IMG/VR virus record: IMGVR_UViG_2541047861_000012
Coordinates: 1 to 19,841 of that record
Direction: 5' to 3' (one strand)
Length of the DNA: 19,841 bases
Source of the DNA: a virus
Taxonomy: Duplodnaviria > Heunggongvirae > Uroviricota > Caudoviricetes
The position numbers were made by a program, and so were the translations under genes. This document shows, piece after piece, positions 1-19,841 of this stretch. The notes beneath the pieces were generated by a model that did no database searches, was not told the origin of the DNA, and saw nothing but the letters and a program-made list of their open reading frames with translations. The stretch's first letter is position 1. The number at the start of each line of letters is the position of its first letter.

Positions 1-516
1 ATGAAATTTAAAAAATGTCTTCTGCCTGTGGCAATGTTAGCGTCATTCACTCTGGCAGGATGCCAGTCAAATGCTGATGATCATGCCGCCGATGTTTATC
101 AAACCGATCAACTGAATACCAAACAAGAAACTAAAACCGTTAATATTATTTCCATTCTTCCCGCAAAAGTTGCCGTAGACAACGCCCAAAATAAACGGAA
201 CGCACAAGCCTTCGGCGCGCTTATTGGCGCTGTCGCTGGCGGTGTTATCGGCCACAACGTCGGGTCTGGCAGCAATTCCGGAACGACGGCAGGTGCAGTT
301 GGCGGCGGAGCTGTAGGCGCGGCAGCGGGTTCTATGGTGAATGATAAAACCTTAGTGGAAGGTGTTTCTTTAACATATAAGGAAGGCACCAAAGTGTATA
401 CCTCCACCCAGGTGGGTAAAGAGTGCCAGTTTACGACAGGTTTAGCCGTTGTTATTACCACGACGTATAACGAAACGCGTATTCAGCCAAATACCAAATG
501 TCCTGAAAAGAGCTAA
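1..516 (+). CDS. outer-membrane lipoprotein with glycine-zipper domain (SlyB/YcfJ-like)
   Basis: ATG at window position 1; lipoprotein signal peptide MKFKKCLLPVAMLASFTLAGC with lipobox LAGC; Gly/Ala-rich stretch GALIGAVAGGVIGHNVGSG...GAVGGGAVGAAAG typical of glycine-zipper lipoproteins; stop 514-516. Family call from motif recall only. Confidence 0.7.
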   Translation: MKFKKCLLPVAMLASFTLAGCQSNADDHAADVYQTDQLNTKQETKTVNIISILPAKVAVDNAQNKRNAQAFGALIGAVAGGVIGHNVGSGSNSGTTAGAVGGGAVGAAAGSMVNDKTLVEGVSLTYKEGTKVYTSTQVGKECQFTTGLAVVITTTYNETRIQPNTKCPEKS

Positions 517-531
517 TAATCAGGAGGAGTC

Positions 532-1071
532 ATGAAGAAAGTTTTTCTTTGCGCCATCTTAGCCTCCTTAAGCTATCCGGCTATCGCCTCATCATTGCAG
601 GATCAACTCTCGGCTGTCGCAGAAGCGGAACAGCAAGGTAAAAATGAAGAGCAAAGGCAGCATGACGAATGGGTCGCGGAGCGCAACAGGGAAATCCAGC
701 AAGAGAAGCAACGTCGCGCAAACGCCCAGGCCGCGGCTAATAAAAGAGCGGCAACGGCAGCAGCGAATAAGAAAGCTCGTCAGGATAAACTGGACGCCGA
801 AGCCACTGCGGACAAAAAACGCGATCAAAGTTATGAAGATGAGCTACGTAGCTTAGAGATTCAGAAACAAAAACTGGCGCTGGCGAAAGAAGAAGCCCGC
901 GTCAAGCGCGAAAACGAATTTATCGATCAGGAACTGAAGCACAAAGCTGCGCAAACCGATGTGGTGCAATCTGAAGCTGACGCAAACAGAAATATGACTG
1001 AAGGCGGTCGCGATCTGATGAAAAGCGTGGGTAAAGCAGAAGAGAATAAATCAGATAGCTGGTTTAACTAA
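532..1071 (+). CDS. secreted/periplasmic coiled-coil protein of unknown function
   Basis: AGGAGG Shine-Dalgarno at 522-527 just upstream of ATG 532; signal peptide MKKVFLCAILASLSYPAIASS; remainder Lys/Glu/Ala/Gln-rich and coiled-coil-like; followed by terminator 1110-1144. Confidence 0.65.
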   Translation: MKKVFLCAILASLSYPAIASSLQDQLSAVAEAEQQGKNEEQRQHDEWVAERNREIQQEKQRRANAQAAANKRAATAAANKKARQDKLDAEATADKKRDQSYEDELRSLEIQKQKLALAKEEARVKRENEFIDQELKHKAAQTDVVQSEADANRNMTEGGRDLMKSVGKAEENKSDSWFN

Positions 1072-1289: not shown

Positions 1290-1772
1290 CTATCTGGTCA
1301 GGGTGTCGTACTGTTTTTCGCAGACTCTTCCGGCTTCGGCTGCCCGGTCAGCATACTCTGCCAGTTGTCTGTTTCTCTCGAGAGATTTGCTGAGCACGTC
1401 GGCAAGCAAAACTCCGGTGTCTGCGGCTGACGACCCAGCGCCGACAATGGCGTTATAGTGCCTGAGCTGCTCACGGATGGCAACGAGCTGTTGCTGCAAC
1501 CGGCCAGCGCGAGCGGCAGCATCAAGAGCATCATTGCGCGCCTGGTCGATCCTCTGCTGCGATTCACGTTCATTGATCGCTTTCTCCTGTTCGTAGTGCT
1601 GACGAACTCTCTCATCTTCAGTTTTGCGGTCTTCTTTCGCCTGAGCATACCCGGCGTCGTACTGACGACTGCCGTGCACATTCCAGGCAACAACTCCTGA
1701 TGTGGCAAGAACAGCAAGCATCGCCACGATAATCAAATGTTTCCAGTATGCTTTTACGAATGCCCAGATCAT
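1290..1772 (-). CDS. i-spanin (Rz-like inner-membrane spanin subunit)
   Basis: Start ATG overlaps endolysin stop (ATGA, 1769-1772); N-terminal TM helix [18 protein letters not shown] then charged coiled-coil periplasmic domain; contains an embedded +1-frame lipoprotein ORF; sits directly after the endolysin. Confidence 0.75.
1298..1534 (-). CDS. o-spanin (Rz1-like outer-membrane lipoprotein) embedded in +1 frame of the i-spanin gene
   Basis: Internal ATG-ATG (1534-1529) within ORF 1298-1717 gives about 78 aa [17 protein letters not shown]... with lipobox LALAGC; Pro/Ser/Thr-rich mature part with Cys residues; fully inside the Rz-like gene (stops at 1298-1300 versus 1290-1292). Exact start uncertain. 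Confidence 0.6.
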   Translation of the reverse strand: MMLLMLPLALAGCSNSSLPSVSSSGTITPLSALGRQPQTPEFCLPTCSANLSRETDNWQSMLTGQPKPEESAKNSTTP

Positions 1773-2398
1773 ACAGCCAGCACCTTACTGGCAATGATGT
1801 ATCGGGCGCGGCGGTCATCAATGCCGTTCCGGCCACCATTGATAATCAGAGTTACACGTGCAATATCGCCGGTATACTTCATGCAGCCTTTGCTGGAGAA
1901 GAACCAGGCCGCGCTACGGGCCGCGTATTCGTCCTGTGCCAGCAGTTCAGGATTCTCCAGCAGGTCAACTTTCAGACCGTTTCCGCAGTCACGATAGTTA
2001 TTCAAGCCGGTAATCTGGATAAGTCCGCGCCCACGGTAGTTCCAGCCATCACCAGGGGCATTGTTCCCCATGCGTTTGCTGTACACCAGATTGGCGATAG
2101 CGCGCTGTCGCTCAAGTGGTAATGCTGCTTCACCAGCACGGCGACCCAGTGCATTAGCCTGCCCCTGGGTGAGACGCCCAGCCCGAACGAAGTTAGCCAG
2201 TCCGGTGACACTGTAGTTGAAATTTTCCTGCAACCGGGTGAAGCCCCCAGACTCATGCCCGACCTGAGCAATAAACATTGCCTGATCTTCGGGTTTGCTG
2301 ATTCCAAACTCTTTCATCGCAGAAGTTATATGCAAGAACCAGCGTTCGGCCAGCGCCTCGCTAATACCAGCAGCACGCTGGAATTGTTTAATCTCCAT
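1769..2398 (-). CDS. endolysin, glycoside hydrolase family 19 (chitinase-like)
   Basis: Motifs [12 protein letters not shown] and [16 protein letters not shown] match the GH19 catalytic core; start overlaps the upstream holin-like gene by 11 nt; lysis-cassette context. Confidence 0.85.
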
Positions 2399-2696
2399 GT
2401 TTAGACCTCGTTATTTTGAAAATTTGAACGACGTTACCGCGAGTTTTAAGAACCGCAGCAAGCATGACAGCGTTAATAATGACCTCAGATAAATCCACAG
2501 CCATTGGCGTACGTAACCAGATTGCATAGGCGACTCGAACAGGAATACTGGCCGCAGCAACAATCAGGAAATAAGCAAGCCATCCTCCCCACCTTCGGTG
2601 TTGAGAGCCGTTACGCCGGAATGTGACAACGCGAATTGCTATGCCAGTGCAAATAACTGCATTGGTGATAAGCAAAAAAAACTCATGCGTTACCAT
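2388..2696 (-). CDS. holin-like small membrane protein (second holin or antiholin)
   Basis: 102 aa; hydrophobic segments [54 protein letters not shown]; basic C-terminal tail; overlaps 2683-3087 by 14 nt and the endolysin by 11 nt. Confidence 0.55.
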
Positions 2697-3087
2697 CGTC
2701 TTTTCTCCCCGGAATTAACTCGCGTGGATTATCGGAAAGGTGATAGAGCCATATACCAATACGCACAGCGACAATTGCTGACACGAATGCGCCTGCAGAG
2801 AAAACAATCCCTTTTTCAAAAGAGTCCTGCGTGATGGTAGGGATCAGGCTAGCTATGCCGATAAGAATTGATGCTGCTGGTTTGTAAAAGAGAAGGCCGC
2901 AAAGAAAGCTGAGCATCGACAGGAGCACCCGGCGACGGATGGGGTACTCTACTGCAGAGGTAACAAAAATTACCGCCCCAGCCAAAGCCCCTAAAGCAAC
3001 CTCCGGAGGGACACCTGCAATAACCGCAGCAAGAGAACCAAAACTAAGCAACTGATTTAATTGCTCACTTGTTACTTGAGCAGACAT
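2683..3087 (-). CDS. holin (class I-like, 3-4 TM segments)
   Basis: 134 aa; AGGAG about 5 nt upstream of ATG 3087 on the minus strand; several TM helices and charged C-terminus [13 protein letters not shown]; first gene of the lysis cassette. Confidence 0.65.
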   Translation of the reverse strand: MSAQVTSEQLNQLLSFGSLAAVIAGVPPEVALGALAGAVIFVTSAVEYPIRRRVLLSMLSFLCGLLFYKPAASILIGIASLIPTITQDSFEKGIVFSAGAFVSAIVAVRIGIWLYHLSDNPRELIPGRKDDGNA

Positions 3088-3368: not shown

Positions 3369-3395
3369 CCCGCAAAATATTGCGGGCTTTTTTTT
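3369..3395 (+). terminator. rho-independent terminator oriented for plus-strand transcription
   Basis: 7-bp stem CCCGCAA (3369-3375) / TTGCGGG (3380-3386), loop AATA, then C plus T8 (3388-3395). The minus-strand RNA would have no U-tract after the hairpin (reads UAUCAAAAACGG). Confidence 0.5.
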
Positions 3396-6300
3396 AACGT
3401 TCTTCCAGAGACTGAATCCGCTCTTTTATCTTATCCATTTCTCTGCGCTGCCATGCTGCCTCGATATAGAATAAGAGATCAGGTCTGACCCCCCATCTAG
3501 ATCCTGCTGGCGTTATTTCAACGCGCTCAATGATGTCTTCCATTACCATCACTGGATTATCATCCTCATCAACAATGATGCTCCCGTCATTATCAGTCAG
3601 CTGTATTTCCCTTTGGCCAGTAATGACGTCATCATATACTGCGGGATAATCGTCATAGCAAAGAAAGGCATAGCGGCATGTTGTGCTTTCTTCTTCCATG
3701 AGTCCGTGAGAAATAAGAACATCACGAAGTTGCTGCGCGATTACACCATGATGTATCCTCGCCCCTTCTTCTCCCTTTATAGCGACAGCGTTCAGCCATT
3801 TATAAGCGATATACCTGACGTCACCCCAGGCATCCAGCAATGCTTCGTCAGGAGAGACCGGCTCTGTCTTTAATGTTCCGTCACTGGTAACCACAGGATT
3901 GGAGCCAAGATAAACTGTCGAGAACCTGTTTCCCGGACCACCAAGAGCATTTACATTATCAAGATAAGGTTTAACATCTCCGTTCTCAAAAAGATGTTCG
4001 AGTGCGTTATATACCGCGCGACGTGGAGTACTGCTTCCGGAACCATGCAACGTTATCATTGCACCATCTGCTGAAGACGTTGTTTCACCGCCGCTAACGA
4101 TTAATCTCTGAGCGGTAACATCATCAGACGGTACTTTCTTCGCAATAATGGCGTAATTGCCCTCCAGTTTGACTTCCGCGCGAACTTGTCCTGATGTACC
4201 TGCATGGACAGTCAGTGACTGGACGGCAACATCATCTGTGAAATCAACGGGTACAGGAACCGTCCTCACGCCGGACGTCGACATAAAAGTAGGAAGCGTT
4301 CTGTTAGGAGTGGCTCCGTAGACAAAATCCCTTGAAACAAATTCTTCCTGTTTAATTTTCACCCTGAAACAATACAAATCAGCCGGGTGACCATCGTGAA
4401 CATAAGGATATTTTCTGTTGTTATCCCCTATGCTCCATGGGTTTAGAAAGTCTTCCCCACCGAAAATGTAGTACAGCCAGTTGTCTTTGATACAAACTGA
4501 ACCAACACCAACCGCAGAGTTAACTATTCCGCCCTGATAAATCTGATCAGTAACATTAACCCACTCTACATTATCCAGACTCCACTCATTGACGTTAACT
4601 CTGGTCATAAATGTTCTTGGATAATTTCCTGCATAACGGTTATCAGGTTCTCCTCCTTCCCACTCACCAAATGCGCGCTCACTGCCAAAAATAATCAGCT
4701 CATCGCCAACTTTGGCAAAAGGAAGGTTTGAGTGATGAACATTATTTGGGAAGCGAAGAGAATTCCATGATGCACCTAAATCAGAGCTTCTGTGCAATGA
4801 ACTACCGGGTTGAGTACTTAATGTCCCCCTGGTCGTCAGATACAGAATGCCATCATAATATTTTACACATGGCTCAGATGCATTCGCCTCATATTCTGCA
4901 GGTATGCGTCTGCGAACAAAGCTACCAGGAGAACCGAAAGCATCAGAGAAATAGAGTATCCCAAGCTCGCGTGGACCAATATCACCATTATGGTAGCCAA
5001 CAGCAAAACTGTTATCGCTAATCGTCGCAAAACTGTGAATCTCAGTAACAGGAGTGCTTCCGTCAACAAAAGAAGAAATAGTTCCAAGACTGGTTTTTCT
5101 CCATGGTGACGAGTGAAATGATGTACCAAAACTCCAGTATCTACCCTCGTTATTCTGATCCACATCCTGAGTATTTTGCGTCGTAACTGTAAAAGTATTT
5201 TTATCAATAACAGTAGTCACCGTCATATTCCCGGTAACACCTGTAACACCAGAGTTTGAGAAGTTGACAAAATCACCAGCAAATAATCCGTGATCAGTAA
5301 TGCGAATATAAGCGACTTGCTGATTTGCTGCTTTCGTTATACCACCATAAACGCGAAGGCTGCGACTCATTGGACGATCCCACAACTCTGCAACCTGCAG
5401 TTTATTTCCGCGCACGGTCCGCGTCTCAATTACAGCAAAAAGGCGATTTCTGACAACCCCCATACTCATGCAGTGATAGTTAACTGTGGGATAGTTTTCA
5501 TGTAAATCTGTAAGCCATTCCGGCGTTGTCCAGGTCTTCCCGTCATCTCCTGAGCGAACCCATGCAACATGGAGGTTATTTACACCATGGCGGTCTCCAG
5601 CCATAAAAGGCGCATAGATGACATTGTCATATACAAACGTTTTATCCTGCGTCCAGGCGTTGTACCACGGTGTATCTGTAATTTTAAATAACTCTCCCTG
5701 GATAAAATCTTCAGAAGCATAAAAAAGAGGCTGACCCGGTATTCTCTCAAATAAAAAACGAGCATTTTTAAATCGGCTGACATCCGGAAGAGTTGATACT
5801 TTAAAAGTAAGCCCTAATCCGTCAATTTTATAACCTGGAGATGAGGCTTCAAGGCACGCGCTTATTGCAGTGGAATCGTCATTTATACCATCACCAACAG
5901 CTCCAAAATCTTTGGGGCTAATAGCATCACGCATTTTATCCTGGAACGTTCGGTATACTGCCCCAGAACCATACTGAATAAACCAACCAAAACCACCAAC
6001 AACCCCGGCGATTGCAGCATCGACATAATTACGCATTGAGCGATTATTTACAGCGTCCTGTTCAAGTGATGGATCTGCAAGGTTAGAAATTCTGTTTTGC
6101 TTTGCATCGTAATATTTTGCAAGCAAAGATGGTTTCATCAATGCACGTCTGAACCATCCAAAACATTGCTGGATCAGCATCGTCAGGTAGTCAAAGGCAT
6201 CTTCATGCACTTCGGGGAAAAACTTTCCCTGATTGCGAAGGTCTGTCTCCTGCACTACATCAAGCACACGATCTATCGTAATTCTCCATCCAGTAGCAAG

Positions 6301-6513
6301 CGGCGACGGAAGAACCACAGAACCGCCACTATAAGTGCCCGCCCCAGTTACCGTATAACCGGTATCCAGAACCAATTCTGTTACGTTCCCGTTCAGGTCA
6401 GACACCTGAACAACCAGGTCGGATTTTCTGAAAATTCGAAAAGTATACGGAAACGATGTCGTAACGCCGTTACCGGTGTATTCGTTGTGGTCAACTTCGG
6501 TTGAGACCGTCAT
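3394..6513 (-). CDS. tailspike/tail fibre with depolymerase domain (T7 gp17-like N-terminal anchor, Asp-box sialidase-like region, C-terminal S74 intramolecular-chaperone domain)
   Basis: GGAG 7 nt upstream of ATG 6513; residues about 10-115 resemble the T7 tail-fibre N-terminal particle-binding domain; pectate-lyase-like motif DFGAVGDGINDDSTAISA (201-219); Asp boxes SGDDGKTW (321-328) and SSDLGASW (576-583); predicted autocleavage site VVTS/DG (877/878) followed by a chaperone-like C-terminus. Substrate not determinable by eye. Confidence 0.85.
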   Translation of the reverse strand: MTVSTEVDHNEYTGNGVTTSFPYTFRIFRKSDLVVQVSDLNGNVTELVLDTGYTVTGAGTYSGGSVVLPSPLATGWRITIDRVLDVVQETDLRNQGKFFPEVHEDAFDYLTMLIQQCFGWFRRALMKPSLLAKYYDAKQNRISNLADPSLEQDAVNNRSMRNYVDAAIAGVVGGFGWFIQYGSGAVYRTFQDKMRDAISPKDFGAVGDGINDDSTAISACLEASSPGYKIDGLGLTFKVSTLPDVSRFKNARFLFERIPGQPLFYASEDFIQGELFKITDTPWYNAWTQDKTFVYDNVIYAPFMAGDRHGVNNLHVAWVRSGDDGKTWTTPEWLTDLHENYPTVNYHCMSMGVVRNRLFAVIETRTVRGNKLQVAELWDRPMSRSLRVYGGITKAANQQVAYIRITDHGLFAGDFVNFSNSGVTGVTGNMTVTTVIDKNTFTVTTQNTQDVDQNNEGRYWSFGTSFHSSPWRKTSLGTISSFVDGSTPVTEIHSFATISDNSFAVGYHNGDIGPRELGILYFSDAFGSPGSFVRRRIPAEYEANASEPCVKYYDGILYLTTRGTLSTQPGSSLHRSSDLGASWNSLRFPNNVHHSNLPFAKVGDELIIFGSERAFGEWEGGEPDNRYAGNYPRTFMTRVNVNEWSLDNVEWVNVTDQIYQGGIVNSAVGVGSVCIKDNWLYYIFGGEDFLNPWSIGDNNRKYPYVHDGHPADLYCFRVKIKQEEFVSRDFVYGATPNRTLPTFMSTSGVRTVPVPVDFTDDVAVQSLTVHAGTSGQVRAEVKLEGNYAIIAKKVPSDDVTAQRLIVSGGETTSSADGAMITLHGSGSSTPRRAVYNALEHLFENGDVKPYLDNVNALGGPGNRFSTVYLGSNPVVTSDGTLKTEPVSPDEALLDAWGDVRYIAYKWLNAVAIKGEEGARIHHGVIAQQLRDVLISHGLMEEESTTCRYAFLCYDDYPAVYDDVITGQREIQLTDNDGSIIVDEDDNPVMVMEDIIERVEITPAGSRWGVRPDLLFYIEAAWQRREMDKIKERIQSLEER

Positions 6514-6967: not shown

Positions 6968-6997
6968 GATTTGAAATTACCAATAGGAGTGCTTATA

Positions 6998-8842: not shown

Positions 8843-8850
8843 TTCTTTAA

Positions 8851-8871: not shown

Positions 8872-8910
8872 GTGTCTGCGGATTCCCGCCCGGGCGGCGG
8901 TGGCATTCGT

Positions 8911-8935: not shown

Positions 8936-8963
8936 TGTGACATGTCACGCTAGTTTCGTTTTG

Positions 8964-9999: not shown

Positions 10000-10165
10000 A
10001 TGCCACGCTATTCTTCTCACCAGTGAGTCCATACACTTTCCTCAGCTGATAGATAATCTCTGTATTGAACTTTCGGCATTCTTTTTCGCCATTTCTTTCA
10101 ATAGCTAACTTCACATCGTCCGGAAAACGAACTCGTCGTTGACACATCTCTTTTGCTTTTTGCAT
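9998..10165 (-). CDS. arc: Arc-like ribbon-helix-helix repressor
   Basis: AAGGAG SD 7 nt upstream of ATG 10165 (the longer ORF from 10186 lacks an SD); 55 aa MQKAKEMCQRRVRFPDDVKLAIERNGEKECRKFNTEIIYQLRKVY... matches the Arc/MetJ RHH pattern (compare P22 Arc RWPREV...NGRSVNSEIYQRV); first gene of an arc-ant operon. Confidence 0.8.
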   Translation of the reverse strand: MQKAKEMCQRRVRFPDDVKLAIERNGEKECRKFNTEIIYQLRKVYGLTGEKNSVA

Positions 10166-10179
10166 TTCATATCTCCTTA

Positions 10180-10248
10180 GCCCCACCGTGGGGCAAAATA
10201 ATTGTCACACCGTGCGTCATTGATGTCAAGCACACGGTGAGGCATACT
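10180..10248. promoter_or_regulatory. immI-type control region: overlapping divergent promoters with repeated CACCGTG/CACGGTG operator heptads
   Basis: Near-palindrome GCCCCACCGTGGGGC (10180-10194); CACCGTG at 10208-10214; CACGGTG at 10233-10239; a fourth copy GCCACCGTGGGGC at 9976-9988. Minus-strand promoter: -35 TTGACA (complement of 10224-10229), -10 GACAAT (complement of 10201-10206). Plus-strand promoter: -35 TTGATG (10220-10225), -10 CATACT (10243-10248). The heptad core matches the CCACGGTGG core I recall for the P22 Mnt operator. Confidence 0.55.
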
Positions 10249-10285
10249 TCAATCATTGCAAGTAACTCAATATTTGGTGAAGAAC

Positions 10286-10717
10286 ATGAGCAGAGAAGAT
10301 CCACAACTAAGGATCAGACTTCCCGTCGAAGTAAAAGAAAAAATAGAAATTTCTGCAAAAGCCAATAAGCGATCAATGAACGCTGAAATAGTACAACGTC
10401 TTGACACCAGCTTTCTGAAAGATATTCATGAAGATGACGTAATTTCTGCTTATGAAGCAAAAATCATTGCAAACAATGCACGACATGAAATATCAAATAT
10501 TATTTTCAAAAGAACCTTTAATGAAATTAATAAGAAAATAACACTTGGACATACAAGTTTTTATATAAACCTTAATGACCTTGAACTGGAATCACTTGCA
10601 GATAATGATTACCAGATCATCTTTGAAAAAACATTTAATAGGCTCAATGAACTAGGTTACATCATCTGTGAAAACTCATGGGATGCAGATGGTTTTGGAA
10701 TTGAAATACCTGAATAG
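10286..10717 (+). CDS. mnt: Mnt-like ribbon-helix-helix repressor with a novel C-terminal extension (chimeric)
   Basis: ATG 10286 preceded by GGTGA (the ORF track begins at TTG 10256); N-terminus MSREDPQLRIRLPVEVKEKIEISAKANKRSMNAEIVQRL closely parallels P22 Mnt (ARDDPHFNFRMPMEVREKLKFRAEANGRSMNSELLQIV); 143 aa versus 83 aa for Mnt; the extra acidic C-terminal part lies in the AT-rich block. Confidence 0.75.
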   Translation: MSREDPQLRIRLPVEVKEKIEISAKANKRSMNAEIVQRLDTSFLKDIHEDDVISAYEAKIIANNARHEISNIIFKRTFNEINKKITLGHTSFYINLNDLELESLADNDYQIIFEKTFNRLNELGYIICENSWDADGFGIEIPE

Positions 10718-10807
10718 GAAGAACAAAAGGCGTGTACATATTACACGTCTTTAATACAATTGAAAAACGCCACATTACTGATGTATGTTACAACAAGGAG
10801 CGATATT

Positions 10808-11371
10808 TTGAAAACCATATCTATATTAAAGGTTGCATTAGGCGTCGCTATTATTTTGACTCTCTCAATATTGTTTTATTTTTACCACAAACAAACTGCT
10901 ATTGCTCTTGATAGTCACGCGGCAAACTCATTTTTCTCAGAGTACATAGTGCCGCTATCAGGAAGCGGTATAACAAATAAATATACTGACTATGACATCA
11001 AATATGGAATTGATGATGGGGAGACTATTGTATTACATGTAATCATTAAAAACCTAATGACAGTAAATAAAAATACAGACTTCAACGATAAAAATACAAT
11101 ACATCACAACAACAGCAAAACATTAATTTCTTATAGTAGCAACATCTATACGGATAAATACCTAAAATACATATCAGAAGATACAATAAAAGAAACCCGC
11201 GAAAAGTTAAAAAACATATATTGTGCATCCGGCAGTTTTCACAAATTATCGCCGCAAGAGCGTTTATTCTACGAAGCAAGAAAACAACGTAAGTCAATAA
11301 TATTACATTATTATGCTGATTCAGGGGAGACACTCATATTTAATATTGGGGTTTCCCCTGAATCATGCTAA
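10808..11371 (+). CDS. single-pass membrane protein of unknown function in the sieA position (candidate superinfection-exclusion/defence moron)
   Basis: AAGGAG (10795-10800) 7 nt before in-frame TTG 10808; alternative in-frame starts at ATG 10781 and TTG 10760 (ORF track). N-terminal TM helix ISILKVALGVAIILTLSILFYFY then an Asn/Lys/Tyr-rich soluble domain; very low G+C; stop 11 bp from the stop of the convergent 1004-aa gene. Confidence 0.65.
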   Translation: MKTISILKVALGVAIILTLSILFYFYHKQTAIALDSHAANSFFSEYIVPLSGSGITNKYTDYDIKYGIDDGETIVLHVIIKNLMTVNKNTDFNDKNTIHHNNSKTLISYSSNIYTDKYLKYISEDTIKETREKLKNIYCASGSFHKLSPQERLFYEARKQRKSIILHYYADSGETLIFNIGVSPESC

Positions 11372-11382
11372 AGGTGTTTAAC

Positions 11383-14300
11383 TCACCGCATCACCGGATC
11401 CACTTGGTTTATTAGTGGCGCAATCCAGAACAGGTTATTGCCGGGTATCAGGGTTCGGACATTATGCACAATACGATCACCGGCATCACCATTCAACACT
11501 CCTGAGGTCACATCAATGATGCTATCCGCAAGACCAAATGACGGTCCGAATAGAGATCCTACGAATCCACGACTGGCATACCTGGACTGTGTGCCAGTGC
11601 CAAATAAAGCCCCCAGCCCAACAGCACCACCAGTCGCCTTTTCAGCCATGTTGTTATATTCCATCAATGGCCCAAGAATACCGGATCTATCTATACCCTC
11701 AAGCACCAGCTTCTCTGGTGACCAGTCAACATTTTTCCCTTTCGATGCTTCTTTAAGCGCATAGACCAGTGAGCCAAGAGCAATCTGAAATGCAGTGCCA
11801 TAATAAAATTGCGCAGTTCCTTCCTGTAACCCACCAAGTAGCGCACGGTTGTATGAAGCCGTTGTGAATGATTTAAACTGAAATATCGTTCGCCCCATTG
11901 GAGTACTCGCCCATAAAGGTGTGTCACCAATACCGGGGGTGATGATAGTGTTATTAACGTCTTTCAGAACCGCTGACTGGAATACTCCGGCAACGTACTG
12001 ATCGTCCCATTTATCAAAGTTACCAATGTGCCATCCATCAATTACCTCACCATGTTTCTCGAACTCACTGCGAATACGCGCAGCCATATTGTCGTTGATA
12101 CCGAGTTTTGCCATGCGACGTGCAGAAAACGCACCAGACAAAATACCGTCTGACGTGAGCATTCCGTTCATGGATTTGTTTATGTCATTAAATCGATCCA
12201 TGAGTGTCAGCTTGCCGAAGGCATCAGTAATTCGCTCCATTCCTGCTTCGACTGCTGTTGTCCTGGAAGAACTGTCAACAAGATCACCAATTGCACGAGA
12301 ACGTGAATGTAGTACAGTTTCCAATCCAATCCCCATCTTCAACATCTCTTCTTTGCTGGCCTTAAATGCCGGTGATTGGGATATCTGAGAAGCATAGCCT
12401 TTCATGGAGTTACGGAAACCATTAACCATAACCCCTCTGGCCAGATCTGGAATAGCTGATACTGTCATTCCACCGAGTTTGGTCGTGAAGTTCACATCCC
12501 GCAGAAAAGCGCCAGCACGAACAAAAAACGAAGACGGGTCATCAGGCATACCATATGTACCAACAAGACGATCGCGTAATGCTGTTATGTCTCTGAGATC
12601 ATTTGCTCTTGATTTTGAAAGTCTGGACTGTTCTTTCCGTAATTCCTTTTCGTACTTTCGCATTAATGAATCGAGTTTACCCTGAGGAACAACTTCACCA
12701 TTGCTCTCATAACGTGCTTTCAGATTTGCCACACTTTCGTCATATTTCGCCTTTATTTTTTCAGGCACTTCCCGTAACAGACTGTCATATTCGTCCTCAA
12801 TTAATTGCAGACGCTCTGTCATAGTTCGTTTGCCAAATGTTCTCGTCAACTCAATTTCTGCTGCCGCTTCACGGATATGACGTTGTAGAACGTAATTCAC
12901 ATCACTTTCGAGATAATCCCTGATAAGACTATCAGGCACATTTAATGTTCTTTCTTTCGTACTACCTGCGGCTTTTACAGAAAATACGCTGACAAAATCC
13001 TGTGGAACCTTAGCACCAGTAATTTTATTAATTACGATATCCGCTGCAATTTCAGCATCCTCAGGATCCAGTGTTTTATTGCCTCTCGACCACCAGTCAA
13101 CCAAAATACGTCGAAATTTATCGCGTTCACTGATTATTTTTCCAACTTTATATATACGTGGGAAATAGCTTGCCTGGCCTAATGCTTTCAGTTCTTCATC
13201 TGGCGGCAATAAACCAAGCTTTTGCATTTCAACCTTCACCCGATTTAATACAGTTCGCATCGCCTGCGCCGTTTCCTGAACAACAGGATTAGCATGCACA
13301 TCACCGCTTCGCATAGCATTCCCAACCTGCTGACGAAATGAATCAAAACTCATGTCACCACCATCAGCTTTATACTTTGCGTATGCCTGTTTATTTCCGA
13401 CAACAACAGCAGCTTCTTCACGCTGCCATCCACGTGTACGGGTTTCTACAGCTACCGGTGTTTCAATCCCCCTTTCATTTCCTTTAAGGGTGAAATTATT
13501 TTCGGCTAACTCCAGCGTTGTTTTTCGCACTGTCTTGGACGGAGACTCCATTAACCTTGTCAAAGGAGTAAGATAGCTCCCTGCTTTCCATGCAGCCTTT
13601 CCAACCACCCCACCGGAAACAGGGGTTAAATCATCCAGAGTCGCTGTATCAATTTTCATAGCACCAACACTACCACCATCAGAAAGCGAAGCGGCAGCCC
13701 TGTCAGTCGCTGATGTAATGCTCATATTATCAAGAGCATCAGCAACCTCACGCGTGGCTGCAGCCCGGACGGATGGCGAAAGCGCAACACCAGCACTGGC
13801 AAACACGCCGCTCATCATCGCACCCGCTGCAATGTGAGCGGCACTTTCACCCCATGAGCGTGTTATTTGCTGATTATTCAGCACAACCTCGCTTAATGCT
13901 GTACCGGCTGCACCAATCGCAATCTGTGAGCCAATACGCGCCAGTGCCCCTCCTTGAGCACCGGGGATAAACATTGACGCAACAGTAACCGGATCCATTC
14001 CCGCAGCAATACTGGCAAGGGTTCCAACTACGCCAGCATCAGACAATAAACGTCTGTCTTCATTTTCATCATCTATCTGCTGCTTAATCCACGCCGTTTC
14101 CTCTGGCGATCGGGAATCTGCAAATTTCGCCCCCCAGTATTCATAACCGTGCAACTCATTTTTATCAGCATATGGGTTATAACCTTCGACCGGTTCAAAC
14201 TGTCTGGCTGGTCGGAAAAAACCAGCCAGAATATTGTTCTGTCGCATTGCAGCCCCCCATACGGAAGGCTCCGGTGGCAATGGCTCAGGATTAGCCCCTT

Positions 14301-14397
14301 CCGGAAGGGCAACATCAAACCCAGTTTGTTCCGGCAAAACATTACCTGACGGGATCAGTCCGTTATTAAGATCTTCAGCTTGTGCATAAACTGGCAT
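11383..14397 (-). CDS. internal virion/ejection protein (large, gp16-like position)
   Basis: 1004 aa; start ATG overlaps the stop of the upstream gene by 1 nt (TAATG at 14395-14399); Gly/Ala-rich hydrophobic segments typical of podovirus core/ejection proteins; last large gene before the immI-like island, as gene 16 is in P22. Confidence 0.75.
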   Translation of the reverse strand: MPVYAQAEDLNNGLIPSGNVLPEQTGFDVALPEGANPEPLPPEPSVWGAAMRQNNILAGFFRPARQFEPVEGYNPYADKNELHGYEYWGAKFADSRSPEETAWIKQQIDDENEDRRLLSDAGVVGTLASIAAGMDPVTVASMFIPGAQGGALARIGSQIAIGAAGTALSEVVLNNQQITRSWGESAAHIAAGAMMSGVFASAGVALSPSVRAAATREVADALDNMSITSATDRAAASLSDGGSVGAMKIDTATLDDLTPVSGGVVGKAAWKAGSYLTPLTRLMESPSKTVRKTTLELAENNFTLKGNERGIETPVAVETRTRGWQREEAAVVVGNKQAYAKYKADGGDMSFDSFRQQVGNAMRSGDVHANPVVQETAQAMRTVLNRVKVEMQKLGLLPPDEELKALGQASYFPRIYKVGKIISERDKFRRILVDWWSRGNKTLDPEDAEIAADIVINKITGAKVPQDFVSVFSVKAAGSTKERTLNVPDSLIRDYLESDVNYVLQRHIREAAAEIELTRTFGKRTMTERLQLIEDEYDSLLREVPEKIKAKYDESVANLKARYESNGEVVPQGKLDSLMRKYEKELRKEQSRLSKSRANDLRDITALRDRLVGTYGMPDDPSSFFVRAGAFLRDVNFTTKLGGMTVSAIPDLARGVMVNGFRNSMKGYASQISQSPAFKASKEEMLKMGIGLETVLHSRSRAIGDLVDSSSRTTAVEAGMERITDAFGKLTLMDRFNDINKSMNGMLTSDGILSGAFSARRMAKLGINDNMAARIRSEFEKHGEVIDGWHIGNFDKWDDQYVAGVFQSAVLKDVNNTIITPGIGDTPLWASTPMGRTIFQFKSFTTASYNRALLGGLQEGTAQFYYGTAFQIALGSLVYALKEASKGKNVDWSPEKLVLEGIDRSGILGPLMEYNNMAEKATGGAVGLGALFGTGTQSRYASRGFVGSLFGPSFGLADSIIDVTSGVLNGDAGDRIVHNVRTLIPGNNLFWIAPLINQVDPVMR

Positions 14398-17114
14398 TAT
14401 TTAGATCCCCACGAAAAGTAATCTTTAAATTTGTCCATACGTTCGTTATGCAGGCGCTGATACTGCTCATCCAGAGCGCGATGCTTGTCTTTGAAGTTTC
14501 GTATAGCCTGTCCACGCATAATTTCTTCCTGCTCGTACTGCTCCCGTTCCTGCTGCATTTTCTTATAAGGTTCCCAATCTTCTAGTGATGGTTCCCAACG
14601 CATAGGACGCCCATGTTTGTTATAAAACGGCTGGACCCGATCGATGCCATTTTCATCCTTAGTTCTTACCATAATGGCGTAATCACCATTACGAGGTGTT
14701 AACACGTCAGGGGTTATGAATAATTCTCCATTAATACGACTCTCAGGGGTTTTTGTCTCAACTACAGGAGCATTACCTGACGTGATCCCAAGCAACGTCG
14801 GACTGGTTGTTATAATCTCTTTGCGCTCACCGTACATCAGCCGTTCTTTTTCAGCTTTCCACTGCGCCGCCTGCCAGCCTGACGGCCCATATTGATAAAG
14901 CGCCTCCGGTGCATATTTCATAAACTGCGCTTCTCCGTTAACCTCGCTGATACTCCAGGTGCGGGCTATCTGCTGGTTGGTCATTTGCTTCGCTACGTCA
15001 GCGTTACCACCAGCAACGCGGTAGTTAATGTCATACAGCGTCTGATAGTCATTACGGAATCTAGCTGCTTCCGGCGTCTGGTCATCCGCAGACGGATCCC
15101 AACGGAACCACTGCGCCATATTGCTGACAGCAGAATTCATCGCCTTGCTGCGATTATTTTTGTACTCTTTTGAACTCTGCGTTGATGCCAATTGAGCTTT
15201 AAGAGCATCGGTCTGGTTGTACGTCAGGTTCTGCGCCTGCTCGATAGCCGCATCAGCAGACATGCCAGAATCTGTTAGTTGCTTAACAGTCAGATAAAAA
15301 CCCTGCATATCCTTCGGCATATTTCCAATAGATGCATTGTCTGTTTCATATAACCGACTAAACAAATTCGCTGCATTTTTAACCACTTCCTGATTGCTGG
15401 ATCTGGATACTGCTGAAAGCTGCGTGATGACCTGCGAAGGCATGATGCCAGTCTGAGCCACAAGCCGAACAACCCCATCATGAGTGGAGGCATCATTAAT
15501 ACGAAAGTTCTGCGCCATTTCTGTGTAATCAGCAGCTTTCTGCATTGATTTGTTGCTTGGGTCTAATTTTTCACCTATTGTCAGCGCCTCATTGAATCTG
15601 CGTGAATCACGTTGCGCCTGAATTGCTTCATTTGATCGCTGAAGCAATGCAGACAATTTTCCGTAAGCATCGAGTTTTAACGCATAGTGAGGATCGTTAA
15701 CCTCAGGCTTCACTTTCTGCATTTCTTCTTGCTGCTGAGAAGGAGGTAAATACTGAATTGCCTGGAATATTCTCGCGTTATCAATCGCTATATCCAGTTG
15801 ATTGATTATTTTATCTGCATTTTTTCCATACCCCCTGATGATAGTCTCCTGAGCCGGTATATAATCTGGAACCTCACCGTTATATAGCTGGGCCATGGTG
15901 TTATTAATAGCTGGCTCAAGCTGTTCTAATATTAACTTCCTTTGCTTTTCTATCTGACTATTAGCAAGGTTATCTATTTGATAAATAGTCAGCGGATCCA
16001 TTCCAGTTTTATTTTTTCTATATCGGGAAAGCCACCCTTGTGTTTCTGATGGAAGATTTCGGATAAATTCTTCTTCTGATATTTCACCTTTACGTGGATC
16101 ACCGACTTTGGCGATCAGTTTATCCACGTTACCCATCCCCCAGTTATATGCTGCTCCGGTCAATATTTCGGAGCCGTACTTACCATACAGTTGATTTACA
16201 TAGTCACTGGCGAGCATTTCATGCTGTTGTTCGTCCGTAGGGTTGTATTTAACGCCACGCTTGGCCGCCAGTTCTTTCCCTGTGCCCGGCATTAACTGGT
16301 ATTTCCCCTGGGCTCTCTCTCCAGAAGATGTTATCGGTCCTTCAAGAAGACTACCATCAGGATTAAAATGTCGATCACCTGATTCAACAAGGCGTATGGC
16401 ACGCATGTCCATGCCTCCAGAATCATTTTTCTGAAACAGACCATTTAGCCATCCTTCTGGATTGGCAGCGGCATAATTCTTCGCCCGCATTTCTGTGGCA
16501 CGGCGATCATCACTTTCTATTTCTTCCAGAATGCGTTCTTGTGACCATCCCCTGGCAGCTCCATATCTAGCAATGGCTACCATTCTGGAATTTCTGGCTA
16601 AAGTGGCAGTTTGCGGGTCATTCCAGGCATCCGCTTCATTTTGTATCCATAATTTTCTCGTTGCCTGATATTGCTCATCTTCATAGGCATTTGTCTGCCC
16701 TATCTCATGTCTGAGAACTCCAGTACTGAACTGAATTTTCTGTGTTCTGGCTTGTTGCAAAAACATATTTCTTGCTGCTTCATCAGTCAATGAAGCAGCT
16801 ATTTCTTCCACATCCTGATCAAATCCAGATATGTACTCTTGCCCCTTACCAATCGCATTTTTGCCTTGTTGTGCATAAAAACCGGTTTGAGGGTTATAAA
16901 GACGTTCATTGCTGCGCTGATTAAGCTGAAGGATGGCATCCTGAGACAATGCAACATTCGCTTTCTGCCTGGCTTCACCATATGCCACCGCATACTGATC
17001 TGCGACATTCGCCAGCACCTGACCTGCTTGAGGAACATCGAAGATCTGAAAACCACCGGTTTGCACACCACGACTTTGCACCTGGCGTCCGGATGTAGTA
17101 GGAACAACAGGCAT
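14397..17114 (-). CDS. internal virion protein with soluble lytic transglycosylase (SLT) domain
   Basis: 905 aa; SLT signature around residues 236-330 (RLVESGDRHF...GKYQLMPGTGKE...AAYNWGMGNV); 1-nt start/stop overlaps with both neighbours. Confidence 0.8.
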   Translation of the reverse strand: MPVVPTTSGRQVQSRGVQTGGFQIFDVPQAGQVLANVADQYAVAYGEARQKANVALSQDAILQLNQRSNERLYNPQTGFYAQQGKNAIGKGQEYISGFDQDVEEIAASLTDEAARNMFLQQARTQKIQFSTGVLRHEIGQTNAYEDEQYQATRKLWIQNEADAWNDPQTATLARNSRMVAIARYGAARGWSQERILEEIESDDRRATEMRAKNYAAANPEGWLNGLFQKNDSGGMDMRAIRLVESGDRHFNPDGSLLEGPITSSGERAQGKYQLMPGTGKELAAKRGVKYNPTDEQQHEMLASDYVNQLYGKYGSEILTGAAYNWGMGNVDKLIAKVGDPRKGEISEEEFIRNLPSETQGWLSRYRKNKTGMDPLTIYQIDNLANSQIEKQRKLILEQLEPAINNTMAQLYNGEVPDYIPAQETIIRGYGKNADKIINQLDIAIDNARIFQAIQYLPPSQQQEEMQKVKPEVNDPHYALKLDAYGKLSALLQRSNEAIQAQRDSRRFNEALTIGEKLDPSNKSMQKAADYTEMAQNFRINDASTHDGVVRLVAQTGIMPSQVITQLSAVSRSSNQEVVKNAANLFSRLYETDNASIGNMPKDMQGFYLTVKQLTDSGMSADAAIEQAQNLTYNQTDALKAQLASTQSSKEYKNNRSKAMNSAVSNMAQWFRWDPSADDQTPEAARFRNDYQTLYDINYRVAGGNADVAKQMTNQQIARTWSISEVNGEAQFMKYAPEALYQYGPSGWQAAQWKAEKERLMYGERKEIITTSPTLLGITSGNAPVVETKTPESRINGELFITPDVLTPRNGDYAIMVRTKDENGIDRVQPFYNKHGRPMRWEPSLEDWEPYKKMQQEREQYEQEEIMRGQAIRNFKDKHRALDEQYQRLHNERMDKFKDYFSWGSK

Positions 17115-17689
17115 CAGTAACCTCCTATTTTGAATCGGGAGTCAGAATTCATAAAACCTGAGTTAGATAACATTGGCGTCCCACCACTAGATGTACTTCC
17201 TTTAGAGAACGGACTCCACGTCCCACCAAACATCTGGTACGCACCGTATGCCTTCAGAGGCGCAGTGAGCAATGTTGTTGCTGCTCCCACATTCCCCTGT
17301 TTACGGGCTGAACTGGCTTCTGCTTTATAGTTGGCAGCCTGAACCTGATAACCGTAAGCCTCGCGTTGCGCGTTATTCACCGTCGTCAGAGAATCAAGAG
17401 CGCCAAACTGGGCAGTGTCGCCAAATATATCCAGCGCGTTACCTGTAGATAAATCAGCGCCGGTAGCCCCCATTGTCGCCGCCTGTGTACCAAGCCGCTG
17501 TCGGGTCTCTCTGCGCCGTTGCTCAGCTTCAGCGTTACCTCTGTTTATTGCATCATTTGCCTGAGCTGTGGCTATATCTGCGTTCGCTTCTGCAACCTTC
17601 GAGGCATACTTTCCCTGTTGGTACTGGGTGTATGCCTGAATGCCACTCATGGCGAGCATTGCGCCACCAGCAATAACCGGATCGCACAT
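17114..17689 (-). CDS. internal virion protein A-like (T7 gp14-like)
   Basis: 191 aa beginning MCDPVIAGGAMLAMSGIQA..., resembling the N-terminus of T7 gp14; Ala/Gln-rich; translationally coupled to neighbours. Confidence 0.65.
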   Translation of the reverse strand: MCDPVIAGGAMLAMSGIQAYTQYQQGKYASKVAEANADIATAQANDAINRGNAEAEQRRRETRQRLGTQAATMGATGADLSTGNALDIFGDTAQFGALDSLTTVNNAQREAYGYQVQAANYKAEASSARKQGNVGAATTLLTAPLKAYGAYQMFGGTWSPFSKGSTSSGGTPMLSNSGFMNSDSRFKIGGY

Positions 17690-18153
17690 TATTTTCTCTC
17701 CATGTGAAATCTGTGGAAATTAAGACCAAGAGCACCATAAGGCGCGGCTTCTTCAAGCCTGAATCCAAGCCAGTGCAGCCATGCTTTGGCAACATGGTTT
17801 CGCTCGTCGACATAGTTTTCCAGGCGCGGATAAACTGCCAGCATCTGCTGCAATACAGGGCGGCAGTGGCGAAGAAATGTCTTCTGATATTTTTCGATAC
17901 GACTGGTTCCGACCAGCCAGGGCGTACCATTGCCACCGATCATTGACGCCGGAGATACGCCAAACATGGTTACCAGTTCTCCGTTCGCAAATCCTGACCA
18001 GGCCATAGTCGCAGTACGCAGACCAACACGCAGCGCATCTTCGGTAGTCATCAGTGATACCGCATACAGTTCGTCAATATCAGCCTGACGAACATCCGGC
18101 AAAATCATCTGAAGATGCTCTTCGGTTGCGGGAATAATTTGAACGTCAATCAT
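17689..18153 (-). CDS. hypothetical virion-module protein (154 aa)
   Basis: Uninterrupted ORF with 1-nt overlaps to both flanking genes in the coupled structural operon; no motif recognised. Confidence 0.6.
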   Translation of the reverse strand: MIDVQIIPATEEHLQMILPDVRQADIDELYAVSLMTTEDALRVGLRTATMAWSGFANGELVTMFGVSPASMIGGNGTPWLVGTSRIEKYQKTFLRHCRPVLQQMLAVYPRLENYVDERNHVAKAWLHWLGFRLEEAAPYGALGLNFHRFHMERK

Positions 18154-19718
18154 CAGAATCCCCCAACAGTAAGGCGAGGAATAACGGCAAGAACAGACAG
18201 CGGCAACGGGTCAAGCTGACGGATTTTTACACGTCCGTTTTTGCCCCAGTTACTGTCCAGTTTCACTTCTACTTTTCCGGTAGCATCATCAACAGGATCA
18301 TCGTAGAACTCGAATTCACGCTGTGGATATTCGTACCATTTACCGCCGGGCGTAGTCGCCCAGATGCCGCGACTGGCATTCACAACCAGAGTAACGGACG
18401 GGATCACCTGTTTTTTGTCCAGCAGCGTTTCCTGTCCGTTAATGTTGATATCCAGTGTTTCGAATTCAGCAGTTATTGGCAGGCCGATGTGCACAACAGC
18501 CCCAGGTGATTCCAGCGTGACGGCACCTCCGGAAACCACTTTCTGTGGCTCAACATTCGCATCAGAAAGAATGTTTACGGTCTGTCCTTCAAGATGAGAC
18601 AGGCCTCCAAATGTCCGGCGCGCCATCTGCCAGTTCGTGGTGGCCGTATTCCTGAGGGATGGCGGGACGTTCCTGTTGGCACGAACCACTACAGCGGTAT
18701 TGCTGGTTACAGAAATAATGTCGCAACGTAATTCTTTTGACACTTCATCGCCAGTATCAGGATCAGTTCCGGTATAAGGGAACTGTAGTTGCGCACCGAC
18801 ATCACTACTGGTGAAGTACGCACCACCAGAAACACTGATTGTATATTCCGCGCGGTAATCCCATTCGCCAGAACCACCAGTGATTGTCATCGTTCTGTCA
18901 GACGTATTTCTTCCATCATAGCTAAGGCCAGAATCAACAAAGAAAGCATCTTCATCGCTGGTAAATAAACGGCTGGACAGTCGCTCGATGTATCTCACTG
19001 TTTGCCCGTTAACGGTTCGGTTAATGACGAAATACACCGCATCTTCATTGCCTTCGCTGATACTGCATGTGCTTTCATATTTTCCGGTACTGGACTGTGG
19101 TGCCCATGCAAAAACCTGTTGATCACGCAAATAGGTCATCACCAGTAATTTACCGTCATCACGAATGCAGAAGGCGCTGGAGTAAGGGACAATAGAGAAG
19201 CACCAGTCAACAATGCTGTGCTTCTGAAAAAGATGATTGGCAAGGATAGTAAGGTCGTTCCCCTGATAGCCGTCAACATCGAATGAGTAGGCCAGATCAC
19301 GGACAACACTGCCTTTCTCCTGGACGAACAGAGCAATATTCGCCACGGCAATTGGTGGGACATTGCTCGAGCCATTTGATCCCTGAGAGCTGAATGCAAA
19401 TGATGATGGGGTTAACACTTTGTTCTGGTCGCCGGTGATGACGTACTCACCTCCGGAAGTCAGTGCCACCAGCGAACCGACATCAATCAGGTGGCGGATC
19501 TCATTAACCTGACGCCCGGCATAGGTGTAGATAATTCTGTCGTCATCCTGCGTAGGATTGCTTTTGCCAAAATCCTTATAATCCCCGGTACGGCTGGCCC
19601 AGATAGTCTGAGGGAACGCAGTCGATGCGGCGAAGTAAAGACGTTGTTGATAATAAACAACAGTGCCAGGATAACCATTAACACTGTTCCAGGCATATTT
19701 AGCCCATTTATAGCTGGC
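18153..19718 (-). pseudogene. podovirus tail gene (gp12-like position), 5'-truncated by IS insertion
   Basis: Open frame of about 521 codons runs from the IS junction at 19718/19719 to stop 18153; the first 31 codons of the reported ORF 18153-19811 are read from IS sequence, so the native start and N-terminal part are missing from this side of the IS. Confidence 0.7.
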
Positions 19719-19841
19719 TGAACCGCCCCGGGAATCCTGGAGACTAAACTTCCTGAGAAAGAGGTAAACAGGATGACTAAAAATACTCGTTTTTCCCCCG
19801 AAGTCCGTCAACGGGCAGTCCGTATGGTTCTGGAAAGTCAG
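19719..19841 (+). mobile_element. IS3-family insertion sequence (IS629/IS1203-like), left end, continues beyond window
   Basis: Terminal sequence TGAACCGCCCCGGGAATCCTGGAGACTAAACTTCCTGAGAAAGAGGTAAACAGG begins with the IS3-family TG end and matches the IS629-type left inverted repeat as I recall it; followed by orfA. Confidence 0.8.
19773..19841 (+). CDS. IS3-family transposase OrfA, N-terminal 23 codons (partial)
   Basis: ATG 19773; translation MTKNTRFSPEVRQRAVRMVLESQ is the characteristic N-terminus of IS629-group OrfA (helix-turn-helix region); truncated by the window end. Confidence 0.8.
   Translation, partial: MTKNTRFSPEVRQRAVRMVLESQ

What the first reader, a model, noticed from the sequence alone, without database searches (positions are those of the whole stretch)
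18153..19841. IS629-like element truncates a tail gene, so the prophage is probably defective
The IS3-family left end begins at 19719 and its orfA starts at 19773. The minus-strand tail ORF is open right up to the junction, so the IS has removed its 5' part from this locus. The downstream coupled operon, tailspike, immunity island and lysis genes are all intact, which suggests a recent inactivation that leaves a cryptic prophage still carrying its accessory cargo.
Basis: partly seen in the sequence, partly recalled or inferred. Interest (0 to 1): 0.5.

Follow-up and report, generated by a model that had tools for sequence, protein, structure and literature searches.

The report
IS629 splits a prophage tail-nozzle gene
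A common E. coli jumping gene (IS629) has inserted into the tail-nozzle gene of an otherwise intact phiV10-like K1 prophage, splitting the gene rather than deleting part of it; this is an ordinary way for a prophage to be disabled.

Summary
An IS629 left end starts at 19719 and orfA at 19773. The minus-strand gene 18153-19718 is the 3' two-thirds (residues 303-823) of the 823-aa tail nozzle of a phiV10/epsilon15-type prophage. That prophage lies next to yfgI and carries a K1 endosialidase tailspike.

The window is a contig of E. coli HVH 222, scaffold KE701088.1 (0 mismatches over the 9075 nt compared). It ends at a contig break inside the IS. Across a 705-N gap the scaffold continues with the IS629 right end, a 3-bp target duplication (GGC/GCC), nozzle codons 1-303, and full-length adaptor, head, portal and terminase genes.

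So this is a simple insertion. The N-terminal fragment ends on the TGA of the IS terminus. Every other gene checked in about 29 kb of prophage is full length. None of 5426 complete E. coli genomes has this junction, although 529 carry the gene.

"Probably defective through one recent hit" is reasonable but untested, and it could revert by precise excision.

IS disruption of prophage genes is textbook biology. Interest is low.

The parts
19719..19841 (+). Left 123 nt of IS629 (IS3 family); the window and its contig end inside the element
   Evidence: 123/123 identical to 1310-bp copies in L013 and 122/123 to the annotated IS629 in LC567824. In scaffold L041 a 705-N gap starts exactly where the window ends.
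19719..19743 (+). Left terminal inverted repeat (25 nt, starts with TG)
   Evidence: The two ends of the full-length copy match at 23/25 positions.
19773..19841 (+). First 23 codons of IS629 orfA (MTKNTRFSPEVRQRAVRMVLESQ)
   Evidence: Sequence read. Pfam HTH_Tnp_1 E=9e-4, below the curated cut-off because only 23 aa are present. Identical to the copies annotated as IS629 OrfA.
19716..19718 (.). Left copy of the 3-bp target-site duplication (GGC, which is the Ala303 codon GCC on the minus strand)
   Evidence: In L041, GCC flanks the IS on both sides...GATAATGCC|TGAACC...GGTTCA|GCCAGCTAT.
18153..19718 (-). 3' fragment of the tail-nozzle gene (residues 303-823 of 823), cut off from its start codon and promoter
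   Evidence: Aligns to residues 318-828 of PDB 8ck1_A 'Tail Nozzle' at E=2.5e-132. One to six aa differences over 521 aa from twelve intact homologues. PHROG families annotated 'tail protein'.
18153..19811 (-). Spurious 552-aa chimeric ORF: 31 codons read antisense through the IS end, then the nozzle fragment. Not a real gene.
   Evidence: No promoter-like site in 18000-19841. phrog_15566 (552 positions) matches it end to end.
17689..18153 (-). 154-aa internal virion protein; its start overlaps the nozzle stop (ATGA). Intact.
17114..17689 (-). T7 gp14-family internal virion protein. Intact.
   Evidence: Pfam PF24072; exact matches in other genomes.
14397..17114 (-). 905-aa internal virion protein with an SLT transglycosylase domain. 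Intact.
   Evidence: The exact protein is indexed in 411 blocks of the assembly collection.
11383..14397 (-). 1004-aa internal virion / ejection protein. Intact.
   Evidence: Same length as TL-2011b gp38.
3394..6513 (-). 1039-aa K1 endosialidase tailspike. Intact (context).
   Evidence: Pfam endosialidase domains, E=3.6e-232. 99.2% nt identity to phage vB_EcoP_ZX5 over the full length, and 99.1% to CUS-3 siaK1 over 77%.
1290..3087 (-). Lysis cassette: two holins, a GH19 endolysin and a DUF2514 protein. Intact (context).
   Evidence: Gene lengths 134, 102, 209 and 160 aa and Pfam families as in relatives.
1..1071 (+). Host genes yfgH and yfgI, flanking the prophage end
   Evidence: Annotation of the matching region in 23CRST038. 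5422 of 5426 genomes match some part of the window.

Best explanation
A single IS629 copy inserted by ordinary IS3-family transposition into the tail-nozzle gene of a phiV10/epsilon15-type (Uetakevirus) prophage. The prophage sits beside yfgI in E. coli HVH 222 and carries a K1 endosialidase tailspike. The insertion duplicated 3 bp (GGC, the Ala303 codon) and split the 823-codon gene in two.

Shown:
- The 5' piece (codons 1-303) now ends on the TGA that begins the IS terminus.
- The 3' piece (codons 303-823, window 18153-19718) has lost its start codon.
- The window ends 123 nt into the IS because the short-read assembly broke at this multi-copy repeat.

Inferred:
- Podovirus tails of the T7 type need a hexameric nozzle, which docks on the adaptor and helps hold the fibres or spikes. 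Without a full-length nozzle the prophage cannot build infectious particles by itself.
- The IS lies antisense in the late operon, so it probably also reduces transcription of the ejection-protein genes downstream.
- All other virion, lysis and immunity-region genes examined are full length. The prophage is therefore a single-hit defective, probably recent. In principle it could revert by precise IS excision or be rescued by a related helper phage.
For: - IS identity and exact junction.
- Nozzle identity and full length of 823 aa.
- Source and other side of the IS: the exact 303-aa N-terminal fragment is on record as EQV12787.1 from E. coli HVH 222.
- Scaffold structure: locus L041 reads nozzle codons 1-303 | IS629 right end (222/223 identical) | 705 N | IS629 left 123 nt | GCC + nozzle codon 304 onward. 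The 9075 nt after the gap are identical to the reverse complement of window 10767-19841.
- Independent assembly: Logan contig L043, seen in 4 samples, carries the same right junction.
- Upstream genes: terminase, portal, protease, capsid and adaptor genes are uninterrupted; from the 68-aa gene before portal through the adaptor the lengths equal those in intact relatives.
- Other window genes are exact matches to proteins in other genomes.
- Rarity: the junction is absent from 5426 complete E. coli genomes, of which 529 carry this gene.
- Role of the nozzle in T7-type tails: PMC12002296.
Against: - No experiment shows that particle production is lost.
- The IS interior is a 705-N scaffold gap. 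An intact 1310-bp element is therefore assumed, not seen (1310 - 346 = 964 nt expected).
- About 10 kb of the prophage (early genes, integrase) could not be fetched and may carry further lesions, or none.
- A co-resident related prophage could supply the nozzle in trans; some genomes hold up to three copies of this gene.
- 'Recent' rests on rarity and the lack of other damage, not on any dating.
Confidence: 0.88

Rival explanations
1. One reading: the IS event deleted the 5' part of the tail gene, and perhaps more of the prophage, leaving a truncated remnant.
For: Within the window the 5' part is absent, and the sequence ends in the IS. IS629 is known to cause adjacent deletions (PMC9943667 abstract). 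Deletion-fusion alleles of this same gene exist in other strains (P0001 and P0004).
Against: Scaffold L041 carries codons 1-303 immediately beyond the IS, with a perfect 3-bp duplication and unbroken codon continuity. At least 10.9 kb of upstream virion genes are present.
Confidence: 0.02
2. The junction is an assembly artefact: a chimeric contig end at a repeat, with the nozzle gene intact in the real genome.
For: The window ends inside a multi-copy repeat, and the scaffold has a gap there. Three Logan contigs (L042, L044, L045) stop at or 1 nt past the junction without any IS sequence. L044's last base matches the intact gene.
Against: Both junctions were assembled separately. They fit together as one insertion with a 3-bp duplication and the expected IS orientation, which chance misjoins would not produce. 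A separate assembly from reads (L043, seen in 4 samples) has the same right junction, including the same rare A at IRR position 8.
Confidence: 0.02
3. The insertion is real but the prophage is not functionally dead. It is rescued by precise IS excision, or by a nozzle supplied from a related co-resident phage. Alternatively it still excises, replicates and packages DNA.
For: Precise excision at the 3-bp duplication would restore the reading frame. IS629 excision promoted by IEE is documented (PMC9943667). Many 'defective' O157 prophages are still induced, packaged and even transferred (PMC2669165). All other genes examined are intact.
Against: The presence of IEE or of a helper prophage in HVH 222 was not tested. 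This IS copy has a point change in its right inverted repeat, which might hinder transposase-dependent excision. Without a nozzle no infectious podovirus tail is expected.
Confidence: 0.1
4. The tail gene naturally starts just inside 19718, and the IS lies in an intergenic region.
For: None beyond the open frame.
Against: All twelve full-length homologues compared, including those of isolated phages, are 823 aa. The window fragment aligns from residue 318 of an 830-aa solved nozzle. The only start codon in the 5' stretch of the ORF (upstream of a GTG at codon 129) is a TTG inside the IS.
Confidence: 0.005

Closest known systems
IS629 (IS3 family; isoforms IS1203 / IS3411) insertions in E. coli prophage genes, for example in O157 Sakai prophages and Stx phages
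   Same: The element is the same to 99-100% identity. Ends are TG...CA-type, the target duplication is 3-4 bp, and a phage gene is inactivated by simple insertion (PMC2669165, PMC9943667).
   Different: The host is an extraintestinal K1-type strain and the target is a phiV10-type podovirus prophage, not a lambdoid Stx phage. This copy has a C-to-A change at position 8 of the right inverted repeat.
Prophage of E. coli 23CRST038 at the same yfgI site (locus L013)
   Same: It belongs to the same prophage family with the same endosialidase tailspike. It is also hit by IS629, through simple insertions with 3-bp duplications.
   Different: There the IS629 copies sit in the tailspike and the 905-aa gene, an ISEc23 sits in the antirepressor, and the nozzle gene is intact. 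That prophage has three hits and is further decayed.
Escherichia phages phiV10, TL-2011b and vB_EcoP_ZX5, and Salmonella phage epsilon15 (Uetakevirus)
   Same: Gene order matches: adaptor, nozzle, internal virion proteins, immI-like region, tailspike, lysis. Nucleotide identity is 97-98% to the E. coli phages and about 74% to epsilon15. ZX5 has the same endosialidase.
   Different: Those are viable phages with an uninterrupted 823-aa nozzle gene.
T7 gp12-type tail nozzle (PDB 8ck1 'Tail Nozzle')
   Same: The intact homologue shows full-length sequence homology at E=3e-217. The gene also sits in the same position, after the adaptor and before the internal virion proteins.
   Different: Here only the part that aligns to residues 318-828 remains contiguous with the downstream operon.

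Membership tests
IS629 / IS3 family insertion sequence | Terminal inverted repeats beginning 5'-TG | tested here: met
   The left repeat at 19719-19743 is identical to IS629. The right repeat was found in L041 at 10910 onward, with 1 mismatch in the 223 nt seen, at repeat position 8.
IS629 / IS3 family insertion sequence | orfA with an N-terminal helix-turn-helix, followed by orfB (DDE transposase) reached by a -1 frameshift | tested here: inconclusive
   Only 23 orfA codons lie in the window. They are identical to annotated IS629 OrfA, but the Pfam HTH_Tnp_1 score of 19.9 bits is below the 24.1 cut-off. The orfB 3' end is present in L041 (rve_2, weak). The middle of the element is a 705-N gap.
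IS629 / IS3 family insertion sequence | 3-4 bp direct target duplication | tested here: met
   GCC lies on both sides of the IS in L041. Other copies show GTC, ATA and CTGG.
IS629 / IS3 family insertion sequence | Element length of about 1310 bp | not testable with these tools
   346 nt are sequenced and the rest is an estimated 705-N scaffold gap.
phiV10 / epsilon15-type (Uetakevirus) prophage | Synteny and sequence similarity of the virion module to phiV10 and epsilon15 | tested here: met
   97-98% nt identity to phiV10 and TL-2011b, about 74% to epsilon15, with the same gene order.
Podovirus tail nozzle (T7 gp12 type) | Homology to a structurally defined nozzle, and a position between the adaptor and the internal virion proteins | tested here: met
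   8ck1_A 'Tail Nozzle': E=3.2e-217 for the intact homologue and 2.5e-132 for the window fragment. Gene order.
Defective (cryptic) prophage | Disruption of a gene needed for virion assembly | tested here: met
   The nozzle gene is split at codon 303.
Defective (cryptic) prophage | Failure to produce infectious particles on induction | not testable with these tools
   This needs an induction and plaque assay.
Defective (cryptic) prophage | Multiple lesions or loss of large parts (the usual sense of 'cryptic') | tested here: not met
   No other lesion was found in window 1164-19718 or in the 10.9 kb upstream in L041. About 10 kb of early region was not seen.

The most novel reading that the evidence does not exclude
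The insertion could be more than plain decay: a held, potentially reversible off-state of an otherwise complete K1-specific prophage. The 3-bp duplication lies on a codon boundary, so precise excision would restore the nozzle gene exactly. The C-to-A change at position 8 of the right inverted repeat could alter how readily the element moves or excises. The host would meanwhile keep the endosialidase, lysis and immunity-region genes without the risk of lytic induction.
Probability: 0.04. Interest if true: 0.3.

Novelty: already known. Interest (0 to 1): 0.06.

Why it matters
It matters little beyond annotation. The result tells an annotator that this K1-type prophage in E. coli HVH 222 should be marked as carrying an IS629-interrupted nozzle pseudogene in two pieces, not a truncated remnant.

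It also shows a general trap. A window or contig that ends inside an IS says nothing about what lies beyond, because short-read assemblies break there.

A smaller practical point: one PHROG family (phrog_15566, 'tail protein') appears to be modelled on the spurious read-through ORF created by this kind of junction.

Tried and rejected
- Junction searches: the exact left junction was searched in IMG/VR, with no hits. A degenerate pattern covering both junctions was searched in GTDB genomes and JGI metagenomes and gave only chance hits to unrelated IS3-family ends. In hindsight the right junction could not have matched, because this copy has a mismatch in the repeat.
- Exact look-ups of possible gene calls for the 3' fragment (562, 552 and 438 aa) were not on record.
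- Look-ups of the 905-aa, 1039-aa and 211-aa window proteins returned only the longest contigs of very widespread alleles. None was the source.
- Homology searches with the chimeric ORF and with the N-terminal 303 aa showed other truncated or fused alleles, but not this one as a cluster representative.
- What worked was an exact look-up of nine candidate 303-aa N-terminal fragments, predicted from a 3-bp duplication plus the IS's terminal TGA, alongside the 552-aa chimeric ORF.
- Looking for a 303-position PHROG for the N-terminal piece was inconclusive.
- A literature search for PDB 8CK1 found nothing, so the phage it comes from is not identified.
- No promoter-like site was found that could drive the 3' fragment.

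Full report
**Observation.** The sequence TGAACCGCCCCGGGAATCCTGGAGAC begins at window base 19719, and an ATG at 19773 opens MTKNTRFSPEVRQRAVRMVLESQ. Bases 19719-19841 are 123/123 identical to the left ends of two 1310-bp elements in E. coli 23CRST038. They are 122/123 identical to an element annotated 'insertion sequence: IS3 family IS629' in Stx2a phage LC567824. The full-length copies have 25-nt terminal repeats (23/25 matching) and 3- or 4-bp target duplications. Aligned against phiV10 and TL-2011b, the window follows the phage gene up to ...ATAGCTGGC at 19718 and diverges from the next base. The match is to a known element and is not a chance resemblance.

**The interrupted gene.** In phiV10, TL-2011b and ten prophages fetched here, the homologous gene is 2472 nt (823 aa). 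It lies between a 201-aa adaptor-type tail protein and a set of internal virion proteins, and each start codon overlaps the preceding stop. The phiV10 protein matches PDB chain 8ck1_A, deposited as 'Tail Nozzle' (830 aa), over its whole length at E=3.2e-217. The window fragment matches residues 318-828 of that chain. So window 18153-19718 encodes residues 303-823 of the nozzle, which is the counterpart of T7 gp12. In T7-type podoviruses a hexameric nozzle caps the dodecameric adaptor and shares the fibre-docking site (PMC12002296). By chance the frame stays open through the antisense IS end to the window edge. The only start codon in that stretch is a TTG at 19811, which gives a spurious 552-aa ORF. 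No promoter-like site lies in 18000-19841.

**Surroundings.**
- Window 1-1071 is host yfgH and yfgI.
- The rest is the late end of a phiV10/epsilon15-type prophage. It holds a lysis cassette (1290-3087), a 1039-aa K1 endosialidase tailspike (3394-6513; Pfam E=3.6e-232) and a Bro-N/antirepressor/Arc region.
- Beyond these lie the ejection-protein genes of 1004, 905, 191 and 154 aa.
- Every one of these proteins has the same length as in intact relatives. From residue 26 onward each is an exact match to a protein in at least one other genome fetched, or is on record in its entirety.

**What lies beyond the window.** An IS normally splits a gene rather than removing part of it, so I predicted the other half. 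With a 3-bp duplication, the minus strand would read ...GAT AAT GCC and then TGA, the first bases of the IS right end. That gives a product of exactly residues 1-303. An exact look-up of nine such candidates, built from the N-terminal variants seen in relatives, found one on record: EQV12787.1, 'hypothetical protein G873_02618 [Escherichia coli HVH 222 (4-2977443)]'.

Its scaffold is GCA_000459455.1 KE701088.1 (1.46 Mb; locus L041). Read along the phage late strand, it runs as follows:
- adaptor gene;
- nozzle codons 1-303 ending ...GGATAATGCC;
- TGAACCGACCCGGGTTTCC..., which is 223 nt of the IS629 right end (222/223 identical);
- 705 N;
- the 123 nt of IS629 left end;
- GCCAGCTATAAATGG..., which is the nozzle from the duplicated Ala303 codon onward.

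The 9075 nt after the gap are identical, with 0 mismatches, to the reverse complement of window 10767-19841, and the gap begins exactly where the window ends. The window is therefore that contig, and its right edge is an assembly break inside a repeat.

The target duplication is GCC (GGC on the window's plus strand). An independent read-based assembly (Logan contig L043, seen in 4 samples) has the same right junction, including the same rare base in the repeat. Upstream in L041, the small and large terminase, portal, protease, major capsid, decoration and adaptor genes are all uninterrupted. From the 68-aa gene before portal through the adaptor, their lengths match those of intact relatives.

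**Interpretation.** The event is a simple IS629 insertion, which is shown. It leaves two non-functional pieces of an essential tail gene. The prophage should therefore be unable to make infectious particles on its own, and the antisense IS in the late operon probably lowers expression of the genes downstream. Both of these points are inferred.

'Cryptic' is too strong for a prophage with one lesion in the ~29 kb examined.

'Recent' is plausible for three reasons:
- none of 5426 complete E. coli genomes has the junction, although 529 carry the gene;
- the IS ends differ from other copies by one base only;
- no secondary decay is visible.

It is not dated, however. Precise excision would restore the gene, and IS629 excision promoted by IEE is documented (PMC9943667). 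Prophages with such defects can still be induced, packaged or rescued by relatives (PMC2669165). 'Defective' should therefore be read as 'not self-sufficient'.

**Comparison and novelty.** IS629 disruption of prophage genes is well documented in E. coli. The same prophage family shows it elsewhere. E. coli 23CRST038 has two IS629 copies and an ISEc23 in the tailspike, the 905-aa gene and the antirepressor, all simple insertions. Locus L012 has an IS110-family element inside the nozzle gene. The phiV10-type chassis with a CUS-3-type endosialidase is also already represented by the isolated phage vB_EcoP_ZX5. The specific insertion allele is rare, but nothing about it is new in kind.

**Limits.**
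- The IS interior is an unsequenced gap.
- About 10 kb of early region could not be fetched.
- No phenotype is available.
- The phage of origin of PDB 8ck1 was not identified.

Noticed in passing
window 3394-6513 (-): The tailspike is a 1039-aa K1 endosialidase on a phiV10/epsilon15-type chassis. It is 99.1% nt identical to the CUS-3 (P22-like) siaK1 gene over 77% of its length, and the 5' (head-binding) end differs. It is 99.2% identical over the full length to the isolated phage vB_EcoP_ZX5. This shows module exchange of a capsule depolymerase between two temperate podovirus lineages, and it is already represented in GenBank.
   Followed up: partly
L003-L038 (prophages at or near the yfgI site): The same prophage backbone carries many alternative tailspikes in the same slot: endosialidase, GDSL-lipase type (875/879 aa), pectate-lyase types (763, 826 aa), Peptidase_S74 types (918, 923 aa) and a 765-aa Phage_tail_beta type. 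It also has a variable small-gene slot between the Bro-N and antirepressor genes, which in the window holds the 211-aa ORF at 8207-8842.
   Followed up: no
L041 10917 and L043 (outside the window; right end of this IS copy): This IS629 copy has A instead of C at position 8 of its right inverted repeat (TGAACCGACCC). Two independent assemblies show it. It might affect transposase binding or excision.
   Followed up: no
window 18153-19811 (-) versus phrog_15566: PHROG family 15566 ('tail protein', 552 positions) matches the spurious 552-aa IS-read-through ORF end to end. The 31 IS-derived residues alone hit only this family, in register (E=0.37). The family therefore seems to be modelled on a chimeric pseudogene ORF with this same junction.
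   Followed up: partly
P0001 and P0004: Two different fusion proteins join their partner to the nozzle at the same point (…IRRADSNYYR, about residue 220). One partner is a portal N-terminus and the other is replication protein P. This suggests a recurrent deletion breakpoint in this gene in other strains.
   Followed up: no
L012 5045-8962; L040 5730-7755: Other strains have independently damaged nozzle genes. One has an IS110-family element inserted (a simple insertion), and another has a 108 + 584 aa split allele with 63 member sequences in its cluster.
   Followed up: partly
window about 18642-18644 (nozzle residue 660): The window has Thr at residue 660, where all 12 relatives compared have Val or Ala. 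It is the only residue private to this allele in the 521-aa fragment.
   Followed up: no
window 1 and 19841: The window starts exactly on the ATG of a 171-aa yfgH and ends on a codon boundary of orfA. This suggests it was cut on gene calls. The right edge coincides with a contig end next to a scaffold gap.
   Followed up: yes
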